Shown: in pieces, positions 9,565 through 63,408 of the stretch | Layout: every line of letters begins with the position of its first letter | Numbering within the stretch: the stretch's first letter is position 1 | Sequence record: OK254197.1 | Source: Escherichia phage PNJ1902 | DNA: 64,000 bases | Reading direction: 5' to 3' (one strand) | Notes under the pieces: generated by a model | Told to the model about the DNA's origin: nothing | Seen by the model: only the letters and a program-made list of their open reading frames with translations | The model's database searches: none | Translations under genes and position numbers: made by a program

Positions 9565-10237
9565 ATTTCAAGGCAGCCTTAACAGCTTCATTAATTAATG
9601 AAATTACTTCTTCACGAGTCCACTTGTACCCTAGAGATTTTACGTCAACCCCTAATTTTTCCAGATGTTTAACAGAAGCCAGCTCGTAATTCATATAATG
9701 GACGTTCTGTTGTTTGCCTTCTGATAGAAGCCATACACGATAGCAACCAACAGGATTATCCATTGCTTTTTTGATTTCACCAATACACTGGTATCCAGGA
9801 ACCCAAACAAGCTCACCAACTGCAAATTCTTCTGCTACAGCATCATCAGGAATAATTGGAGGATTCAATGGATCTACAATATCGTTCAAACGAAGTAGAG
9901 CACCATATCGTTCCAGAACAGATTTAACCATTGCTACAGAGCGGTAATTACGATCGGCAATTTCTTCGAAAGAATCACCAGATAAATACTGCTCAATAAC
10001 GTTAGCTAACTCAATGCCTTCAATGAGTGTGCCACGTTTCTTTTTCTTCATTTCGGCAACTTGAATCTGGCGGTCTTGCCATTCTTCAATCATCCTTTCC
10101 ATAGTTGGATTGGATGATACGCCGAGCATTTCACATGCTGCTTTCTTAGTACCACCGTTCTCCAGATGCTCTATAACCTTTTTAAAGACTTCATCCGGGA
10201 TTTCATGGATATGTTTCTTTCTACGAGAACCAGCCAT
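9533..10237 (-). CDS. HTH-containing hypothetical protein
   Basis: 234 aa; N-terminal helix-turn-helix-like segment; first gene after PN25-type promoter. Confidence 0.55.
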   Translation of the reverse strand: MAGSRRKKHIHEIPDEVFKKVIEHLENGGTKKAACEMLGVSSNPTMERMIEEWQDRQIQVAEMKKKKRGTLIEGIELANVIEQYLSGDSFEEIADRNYRSVAMVKSVLERYGALLRLNDIVDPLNPPIIPDDAVAEEFAVGELVWVPGYQCIGEIKKAMDNPVGCYRVWLLSEGKQQNVHYMNYELASVKHLEKLGVDVKSLGYKWTREEVISLINEAVKAALKFDKEKGKRRE

Positions 10238-10268
10238 ATTTAAACTCCTCTCTCAAATTTATGAATCT

Positions 10269-10297
10269 ATTATACAGAAAAATTTTCCTGAAAGCAA
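10269..10297 (-). promoter_or_regulatory. T5 PN25-type early promoter
   Basis: RC of 10243-10305 reads AAAATTTATTTGCTTTCAGGAAAATTTTTCTGTATAATAGATTCATAAATTTGAGAGAGGAG, matching the published T5 PN25 promoter/leader as I recall it. Confidence 0.85.
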
Positions 10298-10305
10298 ATA
10301 AATTT

Positions 10306-10548
10306 TTACGATTCCTTGAGCAAAGAAGCAAGTTCAGCATAGACTTTATCTAACTCAAAGCCGATGCGAAGAGACACGTTTGTTTTCCGTTGTTTAAGTA
10401 ACCACTCGGATATGTTAGGGATGCCAGCTAATCTATGTGGTACCACCCTACATAGCTTCTCCGAAGTGTCGTAAACAGGAACTTTACGCTCTTTTACTGG
10501 GAACTTCCTTGTTTCCCATTTTTTATTCTTCACTGTCATTTCTAGCAC
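10306..10548 (-). CDS. Hypothetical protein
   Basis: 80 aa ORF between PN25 region and helicase gene. Confidence 0.35.
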   Translation of the reverse strand: MLEMTVKNKKWETRKFPVKERKVPVYDTSEKLCRVVPHRLAGIPNISEWLLKQRKTNVSLRIGFELDKVYAELASLLKES

Positions 10549-20383: not shown

Positions 20384-22714
20384 ATGAGCCATCGCATTGA
20401 AAAAGTAATTAAACGTGACGGTACTGTAGAAGACTTTGCTCCCGAAAAAATCAATGGTTGGGCAGAGTATGGTTGCAAAACAGTTGATGTAAGTTGGTCA
20501 GCCATTACTATGGCTGCTCAAAAAACTCTGCCTAAAGGGGTTGTAGATTCCGACACTCTGATGGATGCATTAATTAAAGCTGCTGAAAGTCTTATTAAAG
20601 ATAATCCAGCATATGATGTGCCAGCAAAGGAATTACGTCTTGCGCAAATGCGTAAACGCCTTTATGATTCTTTCGAACCACCTTCTCTACGCTTCTTCCA
20701 TGATCACATGGTTAGCGTAGGTGCATGGGAAGACATGAGTGCATGGATTACCGATGAGCAATTTGAAGCTCTGAATCAAGTTATCGACCATGATCGTGAT
20801 CGTCTTTTTACTAGTGGTGGACTGAAACAGTTCTTTGATAAGTATTCCCGTCGTAACATAGCCACTGGTGAAATTTATGAAACTCCGCAGTTTGCCTACA
20901 TGGGTATGGCAATGGCGATGTTATCTCAACCTAACTGGACAATTCTAGATGCAATCGACCTCTACAACGCAATGTCACTCCACAAAATCAACGTTCCTAC
21001 GCCGCCACTGGTTGGTCTGCGCTCTAGTGACCGTGGATTTGCTAGTTGCTGTCTCGTGGATTCCACTGACACGTTGGATTCAATCGACACCGCCGAGCAC
21101 ATCGTCTTCAAAATGGTCGCAGCCAGAGCGGGAATCGGGTATCATCTTGAAAGCCGATCAATTGCTGATCCGGTGCGAAATGGGGCATTCCCGCATTCCG
21201 GAAAACTGCCATATTATCGACACATTGACCGCTCAGTAAAGGCCAATACTCAGCAAACTCGTGGTGGTTCTGCCACAGTGTCTTATCCGTACTTCGACCC
21301 TGAAATCATTCAATTGATGCAGGTTAAGCAACAACGTGCTACAGATGAGAATAAAATCGATAAGATGGATTATTCTCTGAGCTTTAACAATCTTTTGTTA
21401 AAACGTTATCTTAAAAACGAAGATATTACGCTAATGTCATACTTCTATGCTCCAGAAGTTCATGAAGCGTTTTATAGTGATGACGAGGCTAAATTTGAAG
21501 AAATCTACGTGGCAGCGGAGAAACGTGTGGCATCTCTTACAAAGATCGACCACGAAGGAAAAACAGTTCCTGCAGCTCCTAAAGTCTCTGCAAAAGAAAT
21601 CCTAGATACTTGGCTACGTATCCGAATGGAAACAGGACGTATGTATGCTCACCACATTGGGGAATCTAATCGTCACGGTAACTTCCTTGATCCGATCCGT
21701 ATGACAAACCTTTGTGTTGAAATTACTCAGCCTACACGCCCGTTCCATCACATTACAGAGCTGTACAAGACAAAAGAGCAGCTTGATCAAATGAAGCCGG
21801 AGGATATTGGTGAAGTATCTCTGTGTAACTTAGGTGGTGTTGTACTTGGACGCATGGAATCTCTGGCTGAGTGGGAAAAAACTTGCTACATCCTTCTGAA
21901 ATTCGTTGATACAATTATTGAAATTCAGGATTATCCGTTCCCAACTATGGAATATACGGCTAAGAAACGTCGTAATGTTGGTATTGGCCTGATGAACGCA
22001 GCAGGTGCAATGGCAGCAGAAGGTCTGGCTTACGAAGGTATTGAAGCTCGTAACTGGATTCACCGTGAGGCTGAAAAACTGTCTTACTTCCTGCATAAAG
22101 CCTCTGTACGCCTAGCTAAAGAACAGGGTGCATGTGAGTGGTTTGATCGTACTAAACCATCTAAAGGAATCCTGGTAATCGACACGTACAAGAAAACTGT
22201 TGATGAACTGGTATCCGTAGGTCTAGAAATGGATTGGGAGTCTCTGCGTGCAGATATTCTGAAATATGGTATGCGTAACTCTGTTCTGACTGCTCAGATG
22301 CCAGGAGAAAGTTCTTCTGTTCTGTTAGGTGTTACTAACTCTATCGAACCACCTCGTAAGATTGTATCTATCAAGGGTAGTGCAGTAAATAAAGTAATTG
22401 CAATTGCTCCAGGTGCAACCGATTGGGAAACGTTAATGAGCTATAAACTGGCTTATGATGTAGATCGTATCGAGTGGATCAAGTGGGTAGCAACTATGCA
22501 GAAATTCTTCAGTCAGTCTATCAGTACGAATATGTACTATGACTACACCAAGTTTGAGAATGAAATCATTCCTGGCCCAGTAGTAGTTCGTGATTTCATG
22601 ACTGCTGTTAAGTATGGATGGAAAACTTGGTATTATGCTAACTTCAATACCGCAAATGGTGGAGGTGCTGGAGAAGAAGCAGCCGGTTGTGCATCCGGTG
22701 GTTGTACTATTTAA
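20384..22714 (+). CDS. nrdA: Ribonucleoside-diphosphate reductase large subunit (class Ia)
   Basis: ~776 aa from ATG at 20384 (MSHRIEKVIKRDGT ATP-cone start) with RBS AAAGGAAAG; catalytic-site cysteines present. Confidence 0.85.
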   Translation: MSHRIEKVIKRDGTVEDFAPEKINGWAEYGCKTVDVSWSAITMAAQKTLPKGVVDSDTLMDALIKAAESLIKDNPAYDVPAKELRLAQMRKRLYDSFEPPSLRFFHDHMVSVGAWEDMSAWITDEQFEALNQVIDHDRDRLFTSGGLKQFFDKYSRRNIATGEIYETPQFAYMGMAMAMLSQPNWTILDAIDLYNAMSLHKINVPTPPLVGLRSSDRGFASCCLVDSTDTLDSIDTAEHIVFKMVAARAGIGYHLESRSIADPVRNGAFPHSGKLPYYRHIDRSVKANTQQTRGGSATVSYPYFDPEIIQLMQVKQQRATDENKIDKMDYSLSFNNLLLKRYLKNEDITLMSYFYAPEVHEAFYSDDEAKFEEIYVAAEKRVASLTKIDHEGKTVPAAPKVSAKEILDTWLRIRMETGRMYAHHIGESNRHGNFLDPIRMTNLCVEITQPTRPFHHITELYKTKEQLDQMKPEDIGEVSLCNLGGVVLGRMESLAEWEKTCYILLKFVDTIIEIQDYPFPTMEYTAKKRRNVGIGLMNAAGAMAAEGLAYEGIEARNWIHREAEKLSYFLHKASVRLAKEQGACEWFDRTKPSKGILVIDTYKKTVDELVSVGLEMDWESLRADILKYGMRNSVLTAQMPGESSSVLLGVTNSIEPPRKIVSIKGSAVNKVIAIAPGATDWETLMSYKLAYDVDRIEWIKWVATMQKFFSQSISTNMYYDYTKFENEIIPGPVVVRDFMTAVKYGWKTWYYANFNTANGGGAGEEAAGCASGGCTI

Positions 22715-25725: not shown

Positions 25726-26201
25726 TGTCGGTTTTCCACATTTACACAGATGGTGCTTGTAAGTCTAACCCAGGTCCAGGTGCTTGGGGTTTTATTGTCT
25801 ATAATGATAACGACGATCGTTTAGGTTCTAAATCTGGTTATAATCCTAAAACTACAAATAATGAGATGGAACTCACAGCTATTGTAGAGGCTTTACGTTG
25901 GTCTGTTAAAAAAGATAATAGACCAATTGCTATCTATACTGACTCTGCTTATTGCAAAAATGGCATGGAAAGTTGGATGTTTTCTTGGCAAAGGAAAGGC
26001 TGGAAGAAAGCAGATGGTGAAGCTCCTCTTAATCTAGAACTTTGGCAGGAAGCATTTAAATTAACACAGCAGTATATCAACTTTCATAATACTAACCCTA
26101 CCTTTATTAAGGTTAAAGGACACTCTGGTATTAGTGGTAATGAAGCTGTAGATGCATTGTGTAATACAGTTATTACTGAAGCTGAAATGGCTGAGATGTA
26201 A
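25725..26201 (+). CDS. Ribonuclease H
   Basis: ~158 aa from ATG 25725 (RBS GGGAGG); MSVFHIYTDGACKSNPGPGAWG... RNase HI N-terminus. Confidence 0.75.
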   Translation: MSVFHIYTDGACKSNPGPGAWGFIVYNDNDDRLGSKSGYNPKTTNNEMELTAIVEALRWSVKKDNRPIAIYTDSAYCKNGMESWMFSWQRKGWKKADGEAPLNLELWQEAFKLTQQYINFHNTNPTFIKVKGHSGISGNEAVDALCNTVITEAEMAEM

Positions 26202-27663: not shown

Positions 27664-27879
27664 ATGTTCTCTAAGAAACCACGTTCTGTTACTGAAATTG
27701 TTGCTTCCTTTACCACTATCACTGATGAGCTTCAAGCTCGTATTGAGGCTGATCAAAAAATCGCAGCTGATATTCAGAAACAGCAGGAAGAACTCGCTTT
27801 AAAGTTGGCTGAAACTAACAAGAGTGAAAAATCTGCCCAAACTATTATGGAAAATATCCTTAAACTGCTGGGCAAGTGA
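27664..27879 (+). CDS. Hypothetical protein
   Basis: 71 aa ORF. Confidence 0.45.
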   Translation: MFSKKPRSVTEIVASFTTITDELQARIEADQKIAADIQKQQEELALKLAETNKSEKSAQTIMENILKLLGK

Positions 27880-32623: not shown

Positions 32624-32657
32624 ATTTTATTAACTGTAACTAAAACAAAGGAAATAT

Positions 32658-33605
32658 ATGTTTGCTACTAAAAACACTAAAGAACTGACTTATGAGCAAA
32701 AATTAATGCGTAATATCAAACGTTGGGGTATTGGGGCTGCAGTTGGTTTGGTAGGTTTAGTTCTGGCTCTTAACTCTTACACTGTTGTTCAAGACGGTAC
32801 TGTTAAAACCCAGACTTTCCTGGGTAAAGTTGACCCTAGCCCAGTATTACCCGGCTTTCATATTGTAAATCCTTTTGCTTCTTTCGATACTTTTAGTACT
32901 AAAGATATTGCTCTAAAATTAGATAAACTTCAGGTTCCTAGTCAGGATAAGTTTAAATCCACTGTTGACCTGACTGTTATGTTGCAGTTTGATGGTTCTA
33001 AGGCACCGATTAACCGTATTAATGCAGGTACTCAGGATCAAGCATTAGACAAATATGTAACTGAAAAATTACTGTCTACTATTCGTGAGTTTGGTAAGTC
33101 TGTACCTAAAGCACAAGATTTATTTGATGCTAAAATTCAGGCTCAATTGCAAACCGCAATTCAACAGGAAGTTGAAGAGTATGCACGCCCATATGGTTAC
33201 ACAGTTAAGCAGGTGTTTCTTCAGGATATTACTTTGCCACCGGTAATCATGGAACAGGTACAGAATACCAAAGTTCGTGAAGAGCAAGTTAACGCTGCGA
33301 AAGCTGAACTTGCCCGCGTTGAACAGGAAGCACAGCAAAAAGTTAAACAAGCAGAAGCAGATCGTGAAGCTCGCAACAACCAAGCTATTGCTAATGAACG
33401 TGACGCAGATGCTAAACTGTACGCAGCTAAGAAAGAAGCTGAAGCTAACGCCGCACTGCAACGTACCATTACTCCTGAGATGATTCGTTGGAAACAACTG
33501 GAAGTTGAAATGATTCGTGCTCAGAAGTATCAAGGTGGTGTACCTCAGACTGTAGTTGGCACTGGCTATGATGGTCAAATGATTATGGATATGCGTAACA
33601 AGTAA
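32658..33605 (+). CDS. SPFH/band-7 (prohibitin-like) membrane protein
   Basis: 315 aa; N-terminal TM helix, SPFH-like core, C-terminal Ala/Gln/Glu coiled coil. Confidence 0.55.
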   Translation: MFATKNTKELTYEQKLMRNIKRWGIGAAVGLVGLVLALNSYTVVQDGTVKTQTFLGKVDPSPVLPGFHIVNPFASFDTFSTKDIALKLDKLQVPSQDKFKSTVDLTVMLQFDGSKAPINRINAGTQDQALDKYVTEKLLSTIREFGKSVPKAQDLFDAKIQAQLQTAIQQEVEEYARPYGYTVKQVFLQDITLPPVIMEQVQNTKVREEQVNAAKAELARVEQEAQQKVKQAEADREARNNQAIANERDADAKLYAAKKEAEANAALQRTITPEMIRWKQLEVEMIRAQKYQGGVPQTVVGTGYDGQMIMDMRNK

Positions 33606-49377: not shown

Positions 49378-50129
49378 TGTCAGTATTAGTCGGTTTACAT
49401 GGTGAAGCTGGTTCGGGAAAAGATACCGTTGCAAAATTAATTATCGATTGGTGTAATGACACATATCCAACGTGTTTATCACGTCGTTACAGTTTTGCTA
49501 AGCCCGTTTATGAACTTGCATCTGTAATCCTCGGTGTAACTCCAGAGTTTCTAGGAGAGCGCAAGGGAAAAGAGATTGACCAATGGTTTACGGTCACACA
49601 ATCTCAATTGGAGCGAGCCAGAGATGTGTGGTTTAAGTACGGTATCGATAAGTTTGAAGATTTCTCGTACGTTTGGCCTATTTTTGAGGAAAAATATCTT
49701 AATCCTCAACAACTTATCTCAGAGAGTAAAGAAGACGGACTTTATAGTTTATTTATTTCTCCGAGAAAAATGTTACAGCTCGTAGGGACAGAGCTAGGAA
49801 GGCAGCTGGTGCATGAACGCATTTGGCTCATAATTCTGGAGCAATCCATCGCTAAAGACGACCCAGATGTCGCCGTAATAACAGATGTTAGATTCCCCAA
49901 TGAAGGAGAGTTACTCAGAGAAACAAACCATTTAGATATGGATTCTTTGATAGTAAATGTAGTGCCCGCTGAGCAGAAGTTCACTATTAAATCAGATCAT
50001 CCATCTGAAAGTGGTATTCCTGCAAAATATATTACTCACGAATTAGTTAATAAATTCGATGGTATCAATAACCTTAAACTAGAAGTTTATAACTTCTGTG
50101 ACTTAGAGCTAGAACCACTAGTTGGATAA
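49377..50129 (+). CDS. Deoxynucleoside monophosphate kinase-like P-loop protein
   Basis: 250 aa; Walker A GEAGSGKDT at N-terminus. Confidence 0.55.
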   Translation: MSVLVGLHGEAGSGKDTVAKLIIDWCNDTYPTCLSRRYSFAKPVYELASVILGVTPEFLGERKGKEIDQWFTVTQSQLERARDVWFKYGIDKFEDFSYVWPIFEEKYLNPQQLISESKEDGLYSLFISPRKMLQLVGTELGRQLVHERIWLIILEQSIAKDDPDVAVITDVRFPNEGELLRETNHLDMDSLIVNVVPAEQKFTIKSDHPSESGIPAKYITHELVNKFDGINNLKLEVYNFCDLELEPLVG

Positions 50130-59382: not shown

Positions 59383-59996
59383 TGTTTACACAACAACCTA
59401 TTCAAGTAGTACCAGACCATGAACTGAACACATGGGATTATAGCTTTAAAGATTTAATTGCTACTGTACAATTCAAATCTATGAAGCTAACATTTGCACA
59501 CAATGACCTTAGAGCCTGTAAAGATCTTGAAAGTAAGCTCGAAGATGCTCGTAAGATTTTTGGCAAGGCTCGCATCCCAGCTGATAATCTAATTAACGCA
59601 TTAATCGATGCAGGGTACAAACTTGTGAAGACTGAGGTGAACCGCCCTAGTACTCCAGTGACTATTAGAGATCCGTGGCAGTCAGGGACAATCTCAATGC
59701 TGAATAACTCCGATAAAAGATTAATGTCGGATTTGCACAATGTTCCTTGTGGGGGTGTGGTAAGTAGTACGCAGTCATATAAGTTTGCGGAAGATTACGG
59801 CCCTTCTGTACAGTTGAAACATACTCAAGAAGCTTTTGAATCTGATATGCAAAGCGTAGCACCTGCGGATGCTGGAGTTTCTAGGAGTTCTGTTTGTACT
59901 ATTCATTTTAATAATCCTAGTAAACATGGAAGTTTAGAGGATGCTATTATGGAGGCGTTGGGAGCTGCTCTTAATGAAGATAAGAGAGGTAATTAA
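59382..59996 (+). CDS. Hypothetical protein
   Basis: 204 aa ORF. Confidence 0.55.
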   Translation: MFTQQPIQVVPDHELNTWDYSFKDLIATVQFKSMKLTFAHNDLRACKDLESKLEDARKIFGKARIPADNLINALIDAGYKLVKTEVNRPSTPVTIRDPWQSGTISMLNNSDKRLMSDLHNVPCGGVVSSTQSYKFAEDYGPSVQLKHTQEAFESDMQSVAPADAGVSRSSVCTIHFNNPSKHGSLEDAIMEALGAALNEDKRGN

Positions 59997-60721: not shown

Positions 60722-61442
60722 TTTACGTGCTGAAATTAATAAAAAGCTACGCGAGGAAGCCAGGAGGTTTCCTCTTAAAAACTTTTTGAAGTCAAATGGC
60801 TCTACTAATATAACGAAGATTAGGCAACTTCACCCTGACTTCCAACAAGAGGCCTTAAACCTTATCTTTATTAGGAAAGCTTTAAAAGTCCAGAAAGAAG
60901 AGTATGGGTATGAAAGAGTTAATTATAAGACAGCCAATCAGTTAGTAGAGATATGGTGCTATAAACACAAAGGATACTTTATGCAAACTGCTAGATCTCA
61001 CCTAGATGGGCACGGTTGTTTACAATGTGCTAGAGAAAGCAACCTCAATACACCTATCGAGAAACCGGAAGTAGAAGAAGATGTTCAGTTCCCCACATAT
61101 CTCTATATCTTCTCTAATAAAGATCAGTCTAGGAAGAAATTAAAGACAAAGATTGGGGTTTCTAGAGAGCCACATCAAAGGTTTAAGAATCTAGAGTATG
61201 ATAAATTACGTGTGCCGGGTTTTGAAGATATGGAAGTATTTGGTATCTACCAATATAAGAAAGGATCGAAAGAACTCGCTTACAAAATAGAACACCAAGC
61301 ACATAAATTTTTCGAGAATAAATTTGCTAATCATTATAAATTCGATGGAGCAAAAGAGATATTCAACATTAAAGCTGTAGAGGCAGAAGAATATCTATTA
61401 AGTCAAGGTTGCATAAAAATTTACCCAACTCCAAACTCATGA
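60714..61442 (+). CDS. Two-domain protein: N-terminal domain paralogous to 58247-58693 plus C-terminal T5orf172 (GIY-YIG-like) domain
   Basis: 242 aa; C-terminal YLYIFSN...KIGVSREP...RFKNL motif. Confidence 0.55.
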   Translation: MDDLRAEINKKLREEARRFPLKNFLKSNGSTNITKIRQLHPDFQQEALNLIFIRKALKVQKEEYGYERVNYKTANQLVEIWCYKHKGYFMQTARSHLDGHGCLQCARESNLNTPIEKPEVEEDVQFPTYLYIFSNKDQSRKKLKTKIGVSREPHQRFKNLEYDKLRVPGFEDMEVFGIYQYKKGSKELAYKIEHQAHKFFENKFANHYKFDGAKEIFNIKAVEAEEYLLSQGCIKIYPTPNS

Positions 61443-61469: not shown

Positions 61470-61499
61470 TTGACATTCGTGAGAATAATGTGTTATAAT
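61470..61499 (+). promoter_or_regulatory. Consensus sigma70 promoter firing into the repeat locus
   Basis: TTGACA-18-TATAAT, no ORF downstream. Confidence 0.55.
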
Positions 61500-61851
61500 A
61501 ATCTCATAGATTAAAAACATCAACTTGTTTTTACCTCTAGGCCGTAGATTTACATCATTCCTCGTAGGAAAACACTTGATGACGGTTCTGCTCGCAGGTT
61601 CTCGTCAATTGTTCTTCCACACCGAGACTTAGGAGGATGTATCAAATCGCACGCGCCTAGAGGGGCTAACTCTCATGAAATGGGGGTATATTTACTTTTA
61701 AATAACTAAAAATATTTAAAGGCAATATCTGTGTTCAAGATGATACACCGGTTGCCTCTCATCTGCTAGGATGGCACAACACTTTCTCCTAGACTCCTAA
61801 GTTTCTAGGAATAGTTGAACACTACCTCTAGCGTTTACACTAAACTTTAAA

Positions 61852-62587
61852 TCGGATTTGCACATGTTCTAGGGCAGTTTTTCACCTACTATAAATATCC
61901 TAGGCCGGTTTTCCTATACAGGGCGGTTATGGGGAGGGCGGTTATTTCTAGACAACATTTTTTGAAAACACATTTCTGGATTTTACTGTCGGATTTGCAC
62001 ATTGTGTTTCTAGAAATTTATGGTCGGATTTGCACAATTGCCTAAGTTTTTAGGAACATATAATCTCCTGAAAATGGCAGCATTATTTCGGGCCGAAGGC
62101 CCATGTTTGCCTGAGTTTTTGGAGCCACAGAAATTTTCACTTGTCAAACTATTTTGCCCCATTTTGCTAATAAAATTTTACTTTATCTCCTCTAATCTCA
62201 AATTAACCTAAATCTTCTCAACTCTTCCCCAAAATCCCCGCAAATCGGGTGCCCCGCACCAAACATGCGCCCCTCCAGTTTCTCCTCTTATTTTCTCTCG
62301 CTCTCTCATCTTCTCCCCAAACCCACACAATCACACACCCTCCAATCGAAGTCACAAAAATCTTGTCGGATTCGCACATCTTAATCCTAGAAAAACCATG
62401 TCGGATTTGCACATACCCCACAGGATTCGAACGCAGTTCGTGATTGCTGGAGTTTTTGGGAAAATTCATTGTCGGATTTGCACACTATAAAAATTTTTCG
62501 GGTCGGATTTGCACACTACCAAAAATTGTCGGATTCGCACATACACGCCCGCACGTAACACCCGTGGAGCAATGTCGGATTTGCACA
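61852..62587 (+). repeat. Array of 9 direct repeats GTCGGATT(T/C)GCACA
   Basis: Copies at 61852, 61988, 62023, 62365, 62400, 62471, 62502, 62528, 62574, all same orientation. Confidence 0.8.
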
Positions 62588-62616
62588 AAAGCGCAGGGCA
62601 ATTGCCCTGCGCTAAA

Positions 62617-62830
62617 ATACGAATGATAATAAGAATCATTCTCATTTAAAAAGCGGAATGAGAATGATAATAATTCGCATTTAGAAAGTGAAATGATAAT
62701 CATTATCATTTAAAAAGCGGAATGATTCTCATTTAAGAAGTGAAACGATTCTCATTTAAGAAGTGAAACGATTCTCATTTAGAAAGTGAAATGCAAATGA
62801 TAATGATTCTCATTTAAGAATGGAAGTGAG
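62617..62830 (+). repeat. Tandem ~22-bp repeats (GATTCTCATTTAAGAAGTGAAAC-like)
   Basis: At least 8 imperfect copies; two identical adjacent units around 62727-62772. Confidence 0.7.
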
Positions 62831-62847
62831 AAACACTATTATTTAAG

Positions 62848-62929
62848 TTATCCACAGACTTATCAACAGCACGATTTGACTTGACAAAATTCTAGCCGTT
62901 TTGAAGCGTTATCAACAGACTTATCCACA
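62848..62929 (+). promoter_or_regulatory. Cluster of four DnaA-box-like 9-mers
   Basis: TTATCCACA at 62848 and 62921; TTATCAACA at 62860 and 62909; same orientation. Confidence 0.55.
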
Positions 62930-63150
62930 GCTTATCCTACTGTATAAATATACAGTATTCCTACGCAGCGAATAATTCTAATATACCGCTAAAACGCTCT
63001 CAAACGCATTCTAACGCGTTTAATTTTGTTGGGGATACTAAAACAAGGGCAAAATTGGAGGAGGCTTGAAAATTAGTTAGCCCGCTAACGATCACACAAG
63101 GCGACACGTAACACCCTAACCATTAGCAGGCTAACCATCGCGGGCGCGGT

Positions 63151-63213: not shown

Positions 63214-63408
63214 TTAGTCGGGTAGTCGATGCGTGATTTTTTCCTCCTCCCCATAGGAATCTACCAAATACTGATAATAACCATCGTGATCATAAATCAC
63301 TTTATCATAATCGCCACGCTCGACCGCTTGTCGGTTTTCCGGCGTATCGGGCACGTAAAAAATATCAACCATTGTACTAGTTTTGGTTACAACAATTTTA
63401 TTGCTCAT
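63214..63408 (-). CDS. Hypothetical protein
   Basis: 64 aa ORF beyond the repeat locus. Confidence 0.4.
   Translation of the reverse strand: MSNKIVVTKTSTMVDIFYVPDTPENRQAVERGDYDKVIYDHDGYYQYLVDSYGEEEKITHRLPD

What the first reader, a model, noticed from the sequence alone, without database searches (positions are those of the whole stretch)
62221..62345. Strongly strand-biased polypyrimidine tract
About 120 nt of almost pure C/T on the plus strand (CTCCTCTTATTTTCTCTCGCTCTCTCATCTTCTCCCC...) sits between copies of the 14-bp repeat. Such tracts can form triplex or H-DNA or act as replication or injection pause sites.
Basis: seen in the sequence. Interest (0 to 1): 0.35.

Follow-up and report, generated by a model that had tools for sequence, protein, structure and literature searches.

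The report
G-poor spacer at T5-type repeat end
The flagged "polypyrimidine tract" is part of a roughly 220-bp non-coding stretch, strongly depleted of G on one strand, at the inner end of the long terminal repeat of a T5-like phage (the right physical end of the packaged DNA); it is real and conserved across the phage family, is not a triplex-forming sequence, and its function is untested.

Summary
The window comes from a T5-like phage (Tequintavirus), reversed relative to the T5 record. The interval 62221-62345 is only 70% C+T, not "almost pure". Three things are real:
- a 49-nt core that is 90% pyrimidine (62270-62318);
- an A/C-rich segment (62315-62345);
- a 217-nt block with 6% G and 36% C (62131-62347).

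This block is the strongest compositional outlier in the window and in the rest of a relative's genome.

By homology it starts 9 nt inside the terminal-repeat boundary (62121/62122). That boundary is also the right physical end of virion DNA. The block lies between copies 3 and 4 of the 14-bp DRD repeat, inside T5's annotated "injection stop signal", and 243-460 nt 5' of the conserved major nick (62590/62591).

Its length (217-219 nt), G depletion and roughly 9.8-bp A/T-tract phasing are conserved in 21 Tequintavirus and Epseptimavirus phages. Comparable G-poor blocks occur in Sugarlandvirus, Novosibvirus and Vibrio Thalassavirus. The pure C/T core is the least conserved part; in Epseptimavirus it is replaced by an extra DRD copy.

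No H-DNA mirror repeat, conserved ORF or Rfam family was found.

Best guess (about 0.4): a bent or wrappable DNA spacer of the complex that forms the right genome end. Rivals are a Rho (rut) insulator and a role in transfer pausing. The locus is known; the description of its composition and phasing appears new.

The parts
62121..62122 (.). Inner boundary of the long terminal repeat, which is also the right physical end of mature virion DNA (repeat DNA starts at 62122, 5'-GAGCCACAG...)
   Evidence: Window 62124-62365 aligns to T5 10217-9974, so T5's annotated LTR end (10219) corresponds to 62122. The PhageTerm repeat end of phage Sw2 and the repeat end of phiR2-01 map 2 nt before the match. Records NBSal005 and BD13 start 2 nt before it. 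Five IMG/VR contig ends stop exactly here. This is inferred by homology; the window holds only one repeat copy.
62122..62180 (+). Highly conserved terminal sequence GAGCCACAGRAATTTTCACTTGTCAAGCTATTTTGCCCCATTTTGCTAATAAAATTT
   Evidence: Mean column identity is 95% across 21 Tequintavirus and Epseptimavirus phages, the best-conserved part of the region. A homologous AGAGCCACAGGAATTTT is present in Klebsiella phage Sugarland.
62131..62347 (+). G-depleted, C-rich, helically phased non-coding block (A56 C79 G13 T69)
   Evidence: It is the top not-G segment of the window and of the relatives' genome parts scanned. In 21 homologs G is 5.5-10%, C is 34-38% and length is 217-219 nt, against 20-24% G in the flanks. 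AA/TT periodicity of 9.75-9.9 bp has power 2.52, with 0 of 500 shuffles reaching it, and is found in all 26 aligned sequences. As a single strand it is almost unstructured: MFE -12.1 kcal/mol against -46.8 +/- 8.5 for other 217-nt windows.
62248..62260 (.). Small inverted repeat GGTGC-CCC-GCACC, the only G-containing island in the block
   Evidence: The arms stay complementary through double changes: GGCGT..ACGCC in Stitch and GGCG..CGCC in phiR2-01. Loop length and sequence vary (CCC, TCC, TAAA, TTC). It is the only local stem of at least 5 bp in the block's predicted fold. Few independent events support it, so the evidence is modest.
62270..62318 (+).
   Evidence: It is the top pyrimidine segment of the window. 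Columns 62271-62310 are the least conserved part of the region (70.8%). In Epseptimavirus these columns hold an extra DRD copy, CTCGTCGGATTCGCAC. In T5 the homologous run scores only 19, close to the shuffle mean.
62310..62364 (+). Conserved A/C-rich segment CTTCTCCCCAAACCCACACAATCACACACCCTCCAATCGAAGTCACAAAAATCTT, leading into the next DRD copy
   Evidence: Mean column identity is 91.8% across both genera. Interval 62315-62345 is the best A/C segment of the window.
62023..62036 (+). DRD repeat copy 3, the last copy on the unique-region side (others at 61851 and 61988)
   Evidence: Pattern GTCGGATTTGCACA with up to 2 mismatches gives 11 matches where 0.28 are expected by chance, all on the + strand.
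62365..62378 (+). DRD repeat copy 4, the first copy inside the terminal repeat (others at 62400, 62471, 62502, 62528, 62574)
   Evidence: The 328-bp gap between copies 3 and 4 contains the repeat boundary and the whole G-poor block.
62590..62591 (+). Homolog of T5's major single-chain interruption (nick) at 7.9%/99.5% of the genome: ...GTCGGATTTGCACA-AAA^GCGCAGGGCAATTGCCCTGCGC
   Evidence: T5 annotates the nick at 9748/9749 on its minus strand, which is the window's + strand. The aligned sequence is at 62587-62612. The same DRD-then-Pu^GCGCAGG arrangement occurs in Sugarland, Stubb and Vibrio phage AG74.
61470..61499 (+). Context: perfect-consensus sigma-70 promoter-like site (TTGACA-18-TATAAT with TG) pointing toward the block
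   Evidence: It matches 12 of 12 positions. This is a prediction only. It matters for the rut/Rho rival explanation.

Best explanation
What it is (well supported): the tract is part of a roughly 217-nt non-coding block that forms the innermost end of the ~10-kb direct terminal repeat of a T5-like phage. Because the repeat is terminal, the same sequence is also the last ~225 bp at the right physical end of the packaged DNA. The block sits in the one large gap (328 bp) of the array of same-orientation 14-bp DRD repeats. It is 243-460 nt 5' of the conserved major nick, on the strand that is nicked and that carries the 5' end at that terminus. That strand has almost no G.

How it most likely works (inferred): it acts as double-stranded DNA, as a bent or wrappable spacer of fixed length and fixed helical phase. 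The spacer would belong to the nucleoprotein complex that recognises and cuts the concatemer at 62121/62122 to make the right genome end, which by inference is the end where packaging starts. The DRD arrays on either side would be the protein-binding sites. In the centre of the block, selection acts on length, composition and ~9.8-bp phasing of A/T tracts against C runs, not on exact sequence. The pure C/T run is a lineage-specific filling of that spacer and not itself the functional unit.
For: Identity and position:
- Best matches are Tequintavirus phages at 93-96%. Mapping to T5 places the block at the LTR end, within the iss feature and near the nick.
- The boundary at 62122 is supported by T5, Sw2 (PhageTerm), phiR2-01, two record starts and five contig ends.

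Uniqueness: it is the top compositional outlier in the window, in NBSal005 1-50000 and in T5 1-50000.

Constraint on length and composition rather than sequence:
- Length is 217-219 nt and G is 5.5-10% in 21 phages of two genera, although 120 of 198 columns vary.
- G-poor, C-rich blocks with unalignable sequence lie in the same place and orientation in Sugarland, Stubb and AG74.

Helical phasing:
- AA/TT power is 2.52 at 9.75 bp. None of the genome windows sampled at step 40 reached it (largest 2.40), and neither did any of 500 shuffles.
- The signal is present in all 26 aligned sequences (1.74-3.39).
- In Sugarland the C/G-dinucleotide signal is periodic (2.28 at 9.6 bp). In Stubb and AG74 the locally strongest periodic windows fall on their G-poor blocks.
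- Base identity at lag 10 is enriched, z 2.3-3.2 in five of the six phages tested.

Architecture: the highly conserved 59-bp terminal sequence and 55-bp A/C-rich segment flank a variable centre, and DRD arrays lie on both sides of the cut.

Inference chain for "packaging start":
- The left repeat enters the cell first (Davison 2020; PMC10644984).
- From general knowledge of tailed phages such as lambda, the last DNA packaged exits first, so the right end would be packaged first.
- In lambda, the terminase-binding site cosB lies just inside the first-packaged end. That is where this block lies.
- T5's left end has only about 120 nt of non-coding DNA and no DRD copies in the sequence read there.
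Against: - No protein is known to bind the DRD repeats or this block, and no experiment addresses T5 end formation in the literature I could reach. The BF23 paper says experimental studies of this region's function are lacking.
- DNA bending or wrapping does not explain why G is avoided on one particular strand, nor why that strand is so unstructured.
- The phasing signal is strong but not unique. At a finer step it ranks second in the window (2.5 at 27821), second in NBSal005 and second in T5.
- The packaging direction of T5 is inferred, not shown.
- In Vibrio phage AG74 the duplicated region in the assembly starts just after the G-poor block rather than before it. That record's start may be arbitrary.
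- Only 26 of about 442 homologous records were aligned.
Confidence: 0.4

Rival explanations
1. Rho-utilisation (rut) site acting as a transcriptional insulator. When transcribed on the window's + strand, the sense of the long early-gene operons and of the consensus promoter at 61470-61499, the block gives a long C-rich, G-poor, unstructured RNA on which host Rho could load. [quoted passage not shown]
For: - Composition is textbook for rut: 36% C and 6% G over 217 nt.
- The RNA is the least structured 217-nt stretch sampled, MFE -12.1 against -46.8 +/- 8.5, with the weakest elsewhere at -25.3.
- The orientation fits. All early genes from T5.018 onward are read toward the repeat, and T5's annotation lists no terminator between T5.018 and the repeat.
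- A 12/12 consensus promoter lies 630 nt upstream and points at the block.
- The orientation relative to the neighbouring early genes is the same in Sugarland and AG74.
Against: - It does not explain the fixed length, the ~9.8-bp A/T phasing, or the strongly conserved flanking sequences.
- A structured ~200-nt segment with a terminator-like hairpin and T run (61669-61687) lies between the promoter and the block. In AG74 the last early gene has its own clear intrinsic terminator. Little transcription may therefore reach the block.
- Orientation is confounded with the genome end and the nicked strand.
- No transcript data for this region were found.
Confidence: 0.2
2. Part of the two-step DNA-transfer control (injection stop or restart), acting on the phage side. 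When first-step transfer stalls, the block would lie in the proximal tail or head-tail connector. Its bent, protein-binding or otherwise unusual DNA would contribute to the pause, or be the site where A1/A2 act to restart transfer.
For: - It is homologous to DNA inside T5's annotated iss feature.
- The shear point is about T5 9618 (Davison 2020) and the tail is 160-250 nm long (PMC10644984), which equals 470-735 bp of B-DNA. My arithmetic therefore puts the connector at about T5 10,090-10,350, overlapping the block (T5 9992-10184 to the LTR end at 10219).
- Davison's model postulates an A1/A2 target to the right of iss, in both repeats.
- The whole architecture, including DnaA boxes, DRE repeats, the nick, DRDs and the G-poor block, is conserved in relatives sampled from several genera and subfamilies.
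Against: [quoted passage not shown] The block is about 375-565 bp beyond it and is delivered only in the second step.
- The 7.9% estimate and the tail length are both imprecise.
- No evidence links DNA sequence to retention at the connector.
- The region's role is experimentally untested.
Confidence: 0.12
3. Single-strand intermediate. The + strand from the physical end (62122) to the nick (62590) is a 469-nt piece held only by base pairing. Its G-free, structure-free 5' half would ease displacement or resection of this strand, or loading of a helicase or recombinase on it, during repeat annealing, circularisation or repeat duplication.
For: - The G-poor strand is the 5'-ended, nicked strand.
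- The strand is nearly unstructured.
- The block lies at a similar distance 5' of the conserved nick motif in four genera.
Against: The idea is purely inferential. It does not explain duplex-level helical phasing. From memory and not checked here, nick-less T5 mutants are reported to be viable.
Confidence: 0.1
4. H-DNA or intramolecular triplex, or another non-B structure such as a G-quadruplex or i-motif, formed by the pyrimidine-rich strand.
For: The 49-nt core is 90% pyrimidine. The window has four C4 runs at 62227-62273.
Against: - There is no homopyrimidine mirror repeat with arms longer than 6 nt, and the best mirror repeat of any kind has 8-nt arms.
- The longest perfect pyrimidine run is 11 nt.
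- The core is the least conserved segment and is replaced by a DRD copy in Epseptimavirus.
- The C4 runs have 5-, 12- and 14-nt spacers, and the third and fourth runs are not C4 in T5 (CTCC and CCC).
Confidence: 0.03
5. No specific function: a compositional quirk from mutation bias or a decayed gene.
For: The centre of the block tolerates many substitutions. The rate at which G appears as a minor allele is not clearly lower than in the flanks: 21 per 188 non-G columns, against 32 per 209 and 9 per 105.
Against: - The same bias is kept in genera whose block sequences cannot be aligned.
- Length is constant to +/-1 nt.
- Phasing is conserved.
- The skew, (G-C)/(G+C) = -0.72, is far beyond coding-strand skew of about +/-0.1.
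- C rather than A is enriched, which is not what deamination of an exposed complementary strand would give.
- No reading frame is open in all homologs.
Confidence: 0.1

Closest known systems
Bacteriophage T5 left-terminal-repeat end: "injection stop signal" feature / Repeat Region 3 (AY543070 9140-10149; Heusterspreute 1987; Wang 2005; Davison 2020)
   Same: It is directly homologous: window 62124-62365 matches T5 10217-9974 at 86% identity. It has the same position at the repeat boundary, the same flanking DRD repeats, and the same nick, DRE repeats and DnaA boxes further in.
   Different: The published descriptions I could read list repeats, palindromes and DnaA boxes. They do not mention the G-depleted, phased block in the gap of the DRD array; the words "pyrimidine" and "C-rich" do not occur in Davison 2020. 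In T5 the pure C/T run is shorter, 27 nt with score 19.
Terminase recognition regions next to the initiation cut (lambda cosB with its IHF bend; SPP1 pac with bent DNA and repeated boxes). Recalled from general knowledge, not tested here.
   Same: It is non-coding DNA immediately inside the genome end inferred to be packaged first. It has repeated short motifs and phased A/T tracts, and spacing is conserved.
   Different: No terminase binding is known here. There is no IHF consensus in the block. The strong strand asymmetry is not, to my knowledge, a feature of cosB or pac. The repeat arrays straddle the cut, and the genome ends are 10-kb direct repeats rather than cohesive ends or headful cuts.
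Rho-utilisation (rut) sites of Rho-dependent terminators
   Same: It is a long C-rich, G-poor region that would give unstructured RNA, lying downstream of operons that have no annotated intrinsic terminator.
   Different: Transcription of the block is not shown. rut sites have no need for fixed length, helical phasing or conserved flanking motifs.
H-DNA-forming homopurine-homopyrimidine mirror repeats
   Same: The core is pyrimidine-rich on one strand.
   Different: It lacks the mirror symmetry and the uninterrupted run that define such motifs.

Membership tests
T5-type terminal-repeat end / annotated iss region (Demerecviridae) | Sequence homology to the T5 LTR end | tested here: met
   Identity to T5 9974-10217 is 86.2% over 100% of the query. 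442 phage records match, and 430 of them cover at least 80% of the query.
T5-type terminal-repeat end / annotated iss region (Demerecviridae) | Position at the repeat/unique junction, which is also the physical genome end | tested here: met
   The T5, Sw2 (PhageTerm) and phiR2-01 repeat ends, two record starts and five contig ends all map to window 62122. The second repeat copy is outside the window, so this rests on homology.
T5-type terminal-repeat end / annotated iss region (Demerecviridae) | Same neighbours: DRD array, Pu^GCGC nick, DRE repeats, paired DnaA boxes | tested here: met
   There are nine local DRD copies. The nick motif is at 62590/62591. TTATCCACA and TTATCAACA boxes are at 62840-62940, as described by Davison 2020.
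T5-type terminal-repeat end / annotated iss region (Demerecviridae) | Actually causes the pause of DNA transfer | not testable with these tools
   It needs infection experiments. The literature says the region's role is untested.
H-DNA / intramolecular triplex motif | Homopurine-homopyrimidine tract, essentially uninterrupted (about 15 bp or more) | tested here: not met
   The longest perfect run is 11 nt, and the 49-nt core has 5 purine interruptions.
H-DNA / intramolecular triplex motif | Mirror-repeat symmetry (arms of about 10 nt or more, short spacer) | tested here: not met
   The best mirror repeat has 8-nt arms and is 62% pyrimidine. Within the core the arms are 6 nt.
Rho-dependent terminator (rut site) | C-rich, G-poor stretch of about 80 nt or more in the transcript | tested here: met
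   C is 36% and G is 6% over 217 nt on the + strand.
Rho-dependent terminator (rut site) | Little RNA secondary structure | tested here: met
   MFE is -12.1 kcal/mol against -46.8 +/- 8.5 for 160 other windows.
Rho-dependent terminator (rut site) | Transcribed in that sense, untranslated | tested here: inconclusive
   A consensus promoter lies upstream and there is no conserved ORF. However, a terminator-like hairpin intervenes, and no transcript data were found.
Rho-dependent terminator (rut site) | Termination depends on Rho | not testable with these tools
   It needs bicyclomycin or Rho-depletion transcriptomics.
Terminase recognition site (cos/pac type) | Adjacent to the terminase cut that starts packaging | tested here: inconclusive
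   Adjacency to the right-end cut is met, at 9 nt. That this is the initiating cut is only inferred from the order of DNA entry.
Terminase recognition site (cos/pac type) | Intrinsic bend or phased A/T tracts and repeated binding motifs | tested here: met
   A 9.75-9.9-bp AA/TT periodicity is conserved in 26 sequences. DRD arrays lie on both sides. The periodicity ranks second, not first, at a finer scan step.
Terminase recognition site (cos/pac type) | Bound by the small terminase subunit | not testable with these tools
   It needs EMSA or footprinting.
G-quadruplex / i-motif | Four or more G (or C) runs of at least 3 with short loops, conserved | tested here: not met
   The window's C4 runs have loops of 5, 12 and 14 nt, and the third and fourth runs are not C4 in T5 (CTCC and CCC). 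Sugarland has a better motif, but it is not shared.

The most novel reading that the evidence does not exclude
The G-depleted, ~9.8-bp-phased block is a conserved structural DNA device of Demerecviridae genome ends, in one of two forms. (a) It is the wrap-around spacer on which the terminase or DRD-binding complex assembles to cut the right end and start packaging. (b) It is a phage-side "brake": the DNA segment that sits in the head-tail connector when first-step transfer stalls. In that case the long-sought injection stop would be set partly inside the virion rather than at the cell membrane.
Probability: 0.15. Interest if true: 0.7.

Novelty: already known. Interest (0 to 1): 0.33.

Why it matters
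How T5-like phages pause DNA transfer after 8% of the genome, and how their 10-kb terminal repeats are cut and regenerated, are open questions of long standing. The non-coding region that holds this tract is the accepted candidate for such signals but has not been dissected experimentally (PMC10644984).

This analysis divides the innermost 240 bp into testable parts:
- an invariant 59-bp end sequence;
- a variable centre of fixed length, phased and G-free;
- a small inverted repeat that keeps its pairing through compensatory changes;
- a conserved A/C-rich segment.

The composition and phasing, rather than the sequence, are kept in relatives as distant as Vibrio phages. That gives direct designs for scrambling, strand-inversion and half-turn-insertion mutants.

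It also flags a practical point. Terminal-repeat ends predicted from read pile-ups in at least two relatives coincide with the nick motif and may be misplaced. For the original claim, the result is mostly deflationary: the C/T run itself is not conserved and is not an H-DNA motif.

Tried and rejected
- **Coding potential.** No ORF is conserved. Frame +1 is open in 12 of 21 homologs, which is expected for G-poor DNA because two of the three stop codons contain G. It has stops in the window, T5, Spc35 and phiR2-01. Lengths differ by 1-2 nt, and annotated small ORFs differ in position between records.
- **Rfam.** Nothing falls on the tract. There is only a sub-threshold PrrF-like hit (38 bits against a gathering score of 90) on the repeats at 62584-62720.
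- **IHF.** There is no WATCARNNNNTTR match in the block.
- **Tandem repeat.** TRF finds none in the block. Only a weak lag-10 identity excess is present.
- **G-quadruplex / i-motif.** The C-run pattern is not conserved.
- **Shared cut motif at both genome ends.** T5 has GAGCCACAG at one end and TGTCCACTG at the other, but this is not seen in Sw2 or phiR2-01, so it is likely chance.
- **Matching C-rich 5' strand at the left end.** The skew there is only mild (T5 first 90 nt: G 13%, C 36%; AG74: G 16%, C 24%), and the T5 segment is not homologous in NBSal005.
- **Selection against G from minor-allele counts.** The result was inconclusive.
- **True terminus of Vibrio phage AG74 from other records.** Record starts differ, so this was uninformative.
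- **Formal pair counting for the small hairpin.** I abandoned it because the ungapped alignment misregisters the 5' arm; arms were compared by eye.
- **Literature not held in the library.** Davison 2015 and Zivanovic 2014 could not be read. Heusterspreute 1987 and Wang 2005 were not looked up.
Full report
**1. What the sequence is**

The region 61400-63300 matches 456 phage records. The best matches are Tequintavirus phages of Salmonella and E. coli at 93-95% identity. The window is a T5-like phage genome in the reverse orientation of the T5 reference, AY543070.

Mapping to annotated relatives gives the following layout in window coordinates:
- Early genes end at 61442.
- A ~1.7-kb non-coding region follows.
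- Pre-early genes on the minus strand start at about 63214-63408.

This non-coding region is T5's "Repeat Region 3", described by Davison (bioRxiv 10.1101/866236) as a nest of repeats, palindromes and DnaA boxes. T5's annotated "injection stop signal" (iss) feature lies within it.

**2. Checking the observation**

The quoted string is at 62282-62318. The tract lies between two copies of the 14-bp DRD repeat, at 62023-62036 and 62365-62378.

The interval 62221-62345 is only 69.6% pyrimidine, with 57 C, 30 T, 28 A and 10 G. The longest perfect pyrimidine run is 11 nt, which is unremarkable in a window that has 89 purine or pyrimidine runs of at least 10 nt.

Maximal-segment scans show what is truly unusual:
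- a 49-nt, 90% pyrimidine core at 62270-62318, score 29 (next best 18);
- an A/C-rich segment at 62315-62345;
- above all, a 217-nt G-depleted block at 62131-62347 with A56 C79 G13 T69, score 100 (next best 67).

None of 200 shuffles reaches either the pyrimidine or the not-G score.

That is not the case. In NBSal005 1-50000, which supplies the part of the genome the window lacks, and in T5 1-50000, the top segments are again this same locus. It is strand-specific G depletion over about 217 nt, with a short pyrimidine-dense core.

**3. Where exactly it sits**

Window 62124-62365 aligns to T5 10217-9974. T5's annotated LTR end, 10219, therefore corresponds to window 62122. Independent support for this boundary:
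- the PhageTerm-determined repeat end of Sw2 and the repeat end of phiR2-01 fall 2 nt before the match;
- records NBSal005 and BD13 begin 2 nt before it;
- five IMG/VR contig ends stop exactly there.

Because the repeat is terminal, this boundary is also the right physical end of the mature DNA (T5 121750). The G-poor block thus begins 9 nt inside the repeat. Its G-poor strand is the one that carries the 5' end at that terminus.

It is also the nicked strand. T5's major single-chain interruption at 9748/9749 (minus strand of the record) maps to window + strand 62590/62591, in ...GTCGGATTTGCACA-AAA^GCGCAGGGCAATTGCCCTGCGC.

All nine local DRD copies are on the + strand. Three lie on the unique side and six inside the repeat. 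The single large gap of 328 bp contains the boundary and the whole block.

The estimated first-step-transfer shear point, T5 ~9618, lies on the far side of the nick. The block is therefore delivered only in the second step.

**4. Comparative anatomy**

I aligned 26 sequences, of which 21 are non-redundant phages from Tequintavirus and Epseptimavirus. Findings:
- Block length is 217-219 nt in all 21.
- G is 5.5-10% and C is 34-38%, against 20-24% G in both flanks.

Conservation is uneven:

| Segment | Mean column identity |
|---|---|
| Terminal 59 bp (62122-62180) | 95% |
| 62181-62249 | 84.5% |
| 62271-62310, the C/T core | 70.8% (lowest in the region) |
| 62311-62364, A/C-rich | 91.8% |

In Epseptimavirus the columns of the C/T core hold an extra DRD copy, CTCGTCGGATTCGCAC. 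In T5 the pyrimidine run scores only 19, close to the shuffle mean of 18.

The only G-containing island is a small inverted repeat, GGTGC-CCC-GCACC (62248-62260). Its arms stay complementary through double changes: GGCGT/ACGCC in Stitch and GGCG/CGCC in phiR2-01.

No reading frame is open in all homologs, and no Rfam family matches the tract.

**5. Distant relatives**

I located more distant relatives through the DNA polymerase. All three examined show the same architecture although the block sequence is unalignable:
- Klebsiella phage Sugarland has the end motif AGAGCCACAGG followed by about 120 nt of C runs, for example CCCCCTTTACCCCCATTT...CCCCCTGCCCCCATCATCCCC.
- Proteus phage Stubb has a 440-nt block with 7-12% G.
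- Vibrio phage AG74 has a ~170-nt G-poor stretch between DRD-like copies.

In all three the block is on the same strand as, and 170-480 nt 5' of, a conserved DRD-then-Pu^GCGCAGG nick motif. DRE-like repeats and DnaA boxes follow. The compositional feature is therefore maintained across the genera and subfamilies sampled, while the primary sequence is not.

**6. A second, unexpected property: helical phasing**

The terminal 239 bp (62122-62360) show AA/TT periodicity of 9.75 bp with power 2.52.
- None of the windows sampled at step 40 reach it (largest 2.40), and none of 500 shuffles do.
- At step 20 it ranks second in the window (2.5 at 27821), second in NBSal005 and second in T5. It is therefore above the 99th percentile but not unique.
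- The signal is present in all 26 aligned sequences (1.74-3.39) and is strongest in the more divergent Epseptimavirus.
- In Sugarland it is the C/G-dinucleotide signal that is periodic (power 2.28 at 9.6 bp, about 150 degrees out of phase with A/T).
- In Stubb and AG74 the locally strongest periodic windows coincide with their G-poor blocks.
- Base identity at lag 10 is enriched, z 2.3-3.2 in five of the six phages tested. TRF finds no clean tandem repeat.

This is the signature of DNA that is intrinsically curved or built to wrap on a protein surface.

**7.

H-DNA needs a homopurine-homopyrimidine mirror repeat. The best mirror repeat here has 8-nt arms and mixed composition, and within the core the arms are 6 nt. 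The core is interrupted and is not conserved. A G-quadruplex or i-motif reading fails on loop lengths and conservation. These ideas are effectively excluded by sequence.

**8. What it most likely does**

The position and identity above are shown. Function is inferred.

The combination of features points to a duplex-level spacer in the nucleoprotein complex that makes the right genome end. Those features are:
- position 9 nt from the end-forming cut;
- fixed length and conserved helical phase;
- invariant flanking sequences around a variable centre;
- same-orientation repeat arrays on both sides.

The left repeat enters the cell first. In tailed phages generally, the last DNA packaged exits first (established knowledge, for example lambda). 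The right end should therefore be the first packaged. In lambda, the terminase-binding region cosB sits just inside that end, and the block has the equivalent position. T5's left end has only about 120 nt of non-coding DNA and no DRD copies in the sequence read there, which fits a recognition-rich initiating end and a simple terminating end. I put this at about 0.4.

What this model does not explain is the strand-specific avoidance of G, nor the fact that the + strand is the least structured 217-nt stretch sampled (MFE -12.1 against -46.8 +/- 8.5).

Those two facts are what a Rho-utilisation site looks like. The orientation also fits. All early operons, and a 12/12 consensus promoter at 61470-61499, read toward the block, and T5 annotates no terminator after its last early gene. 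Against this, a structured ~200-nt segment with a terminator-like hairpin intervenes. AG74 has a clear intrinsic terminator after its last early gene. A rut site also needs neither fixed length nor phasing. I put this at about 0.2.

A role in pausing or restarting DNA transfer remains possible, at about 0.12. With the shear point near T5 9618 and a 160-250 nm tail (470-735 bp of B-DNA), my arithmetic puts the block near the head-tail connector during the pause.

A single-strand-intermediate role for the 469-nt end-to-nick piece gets about 0.1. Absence of any function also gets about 0.1. Neutral decay is disfavoured by conservation of the bias in relatives with unalignable sequence, by constant length and by conserved phasing. 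Mutation by deamination would enrich A, not C.

**9. Comparison with what is known, and novelty**

The locus is known. It is homologous to sequence inside T5's annotated LTR end and iss feature, and 442 deposited phage genomes carry it. The papers I could read describe the repeats and DnaA boxes, state that function is untested, and do not mention this block; there is no "pyrimidine" or "C-rich" in Davison 2020. The primary papers, Heusterspreute 1987 and Wang 2005, were not available to me.

I therefore rate the thing itself as already known. What appears new is a modest descriptive layer: G depletion, fixed length and ~9.8-bp phasing, conserved in every Demerecviridae genus I examined. Interest is moderate to low at 0.33. 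The original H-DNA claim fails, but the analysis gives concrete, cheap mutant designs for an old open problem.

**10. Limits**

- The window holds only one repeat copy, so the boundary rests on homology.
- Only 26 of about 442 homologs were aligned.
- True termini of Sugarland, Stubb and AG74 are uncertain.
- The promoter, terminator and structures are predictions.
- The packaging direction of T5 is inferred.

Noticed in passing
window 61470-61720 (+): A perfect-consensus sigma-70 promoter (TTGACA-18-TATAAT with TG, 12/12) lies right after the last early ORF. It is followed by a strongly structured ~200-nt non-coding segment (MFE -66 for 61506-61720, against a mean of -46.8 for 217-nt windows) that ends in a terminator-like hairpin and T run at 61669-61687. 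This is a candidate small RNA. T5 has a promoter-like TTGACA...TATCAT at the homologous spot with no promoter annotated there, and Vibrio phage AG74 has TTGATA-17-TACAAT in the same relative position. There was no Rfam hit.
   Followed up: partly
L030 (Klebsiella phage Sugarland, record 10138) and L031 (Proteus phage Stubb, record 11415): The PhageTerm-predicted terminal-repeat ends annotated in these records fall exactly on the conserved nick motif (A^GCGCAGG and G^GCGCAGG). They do not fall on the homolog of T5's physical end; in Sugarland, AGAGCCACAGG lies about 350 bp further on. Read pile-ups at the nick may have been mistaken for the terminus.
   Followed up: partly
window 62574-62594; L030 ~3157-3135; L031 ~6432-6410; L035 168-192: In Tequintavirus, Sugarlandvirus, Novosibvirus and Vibrio Thalassavirus, the last DRD repeat copy directly abuts the major nick motif (DRD, then 1-3 nt, then Pu^GCGCAGG). 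This suggests the DRD-binding factor and the nicking activity are linked.
   Followed up: no
window 59726-59739 (+) and 25727-25740 (+): A perfect extra copy of the 14-bp DRD repeat lies about 2.1 kb upstream of the main array, and a 2-mismatch copy lies far away at 25727. Both are in the same orientation as the array. The context was not examined.
   Followed up: no
window 62248-62260: A small inverted repeat, GGTGC-CCC-GCACC, lies inside the otherwise G-free block. It keeps its pairing through compensatory double changes in Stitch (GGCGT/ACGCC) and phiR2-01 (GGCG/CGCC). Sugarland has GCTGC-GCC-GCAGC in a similar place.
   Followed up: partly
L031 (Proteus phage Stubb) locus ~6612-6586, reverse strand: Between the G-poor block and the nick lies an inverted pair, CCACCAGC-N11-GCTGGTGG. 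That is the E. coli Chi octamer and its complement, forming an 8-bp hairpin. It is not present in the window or T5, which have GCTGGAG at 62446-62452.
   Followed up: no
window 62584-62720 (-): A sub-threshold Rfam hit to PrrF sRNA (38.2 bits against a gathering score of 90, E = 2e-4) falls on the AT-rich DRE and palindrome repeats next to the nick. It is probably spurious.
   Followed up: no
L034 (T5) 22121-22360; window 49541-49780 and 32641-32880: Other windows with strong ~9.5-9.9-bp AA/TT phasing lie at or near other T5 major nick sites. T5 window 22121-22360 contains the nick at 22336/22337. The two window loci are close to where the T5 nicks at 22336 and 39746 should map. This could be chance, roughly p~0.05 by a crude estimate.
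   Followed up: no
L039 1-60 (Sw2 left end), L036 end (AG74), L034 30-50 (T5): A motif, GAGTCTCATTACCGCCCCC (T5: CTAACCGCCACCCCC), lies 20-50 nt inside the left genome end and is shared by Salmonella and Vibrio phages, although the flanking DNA differs.
   Followed up: no
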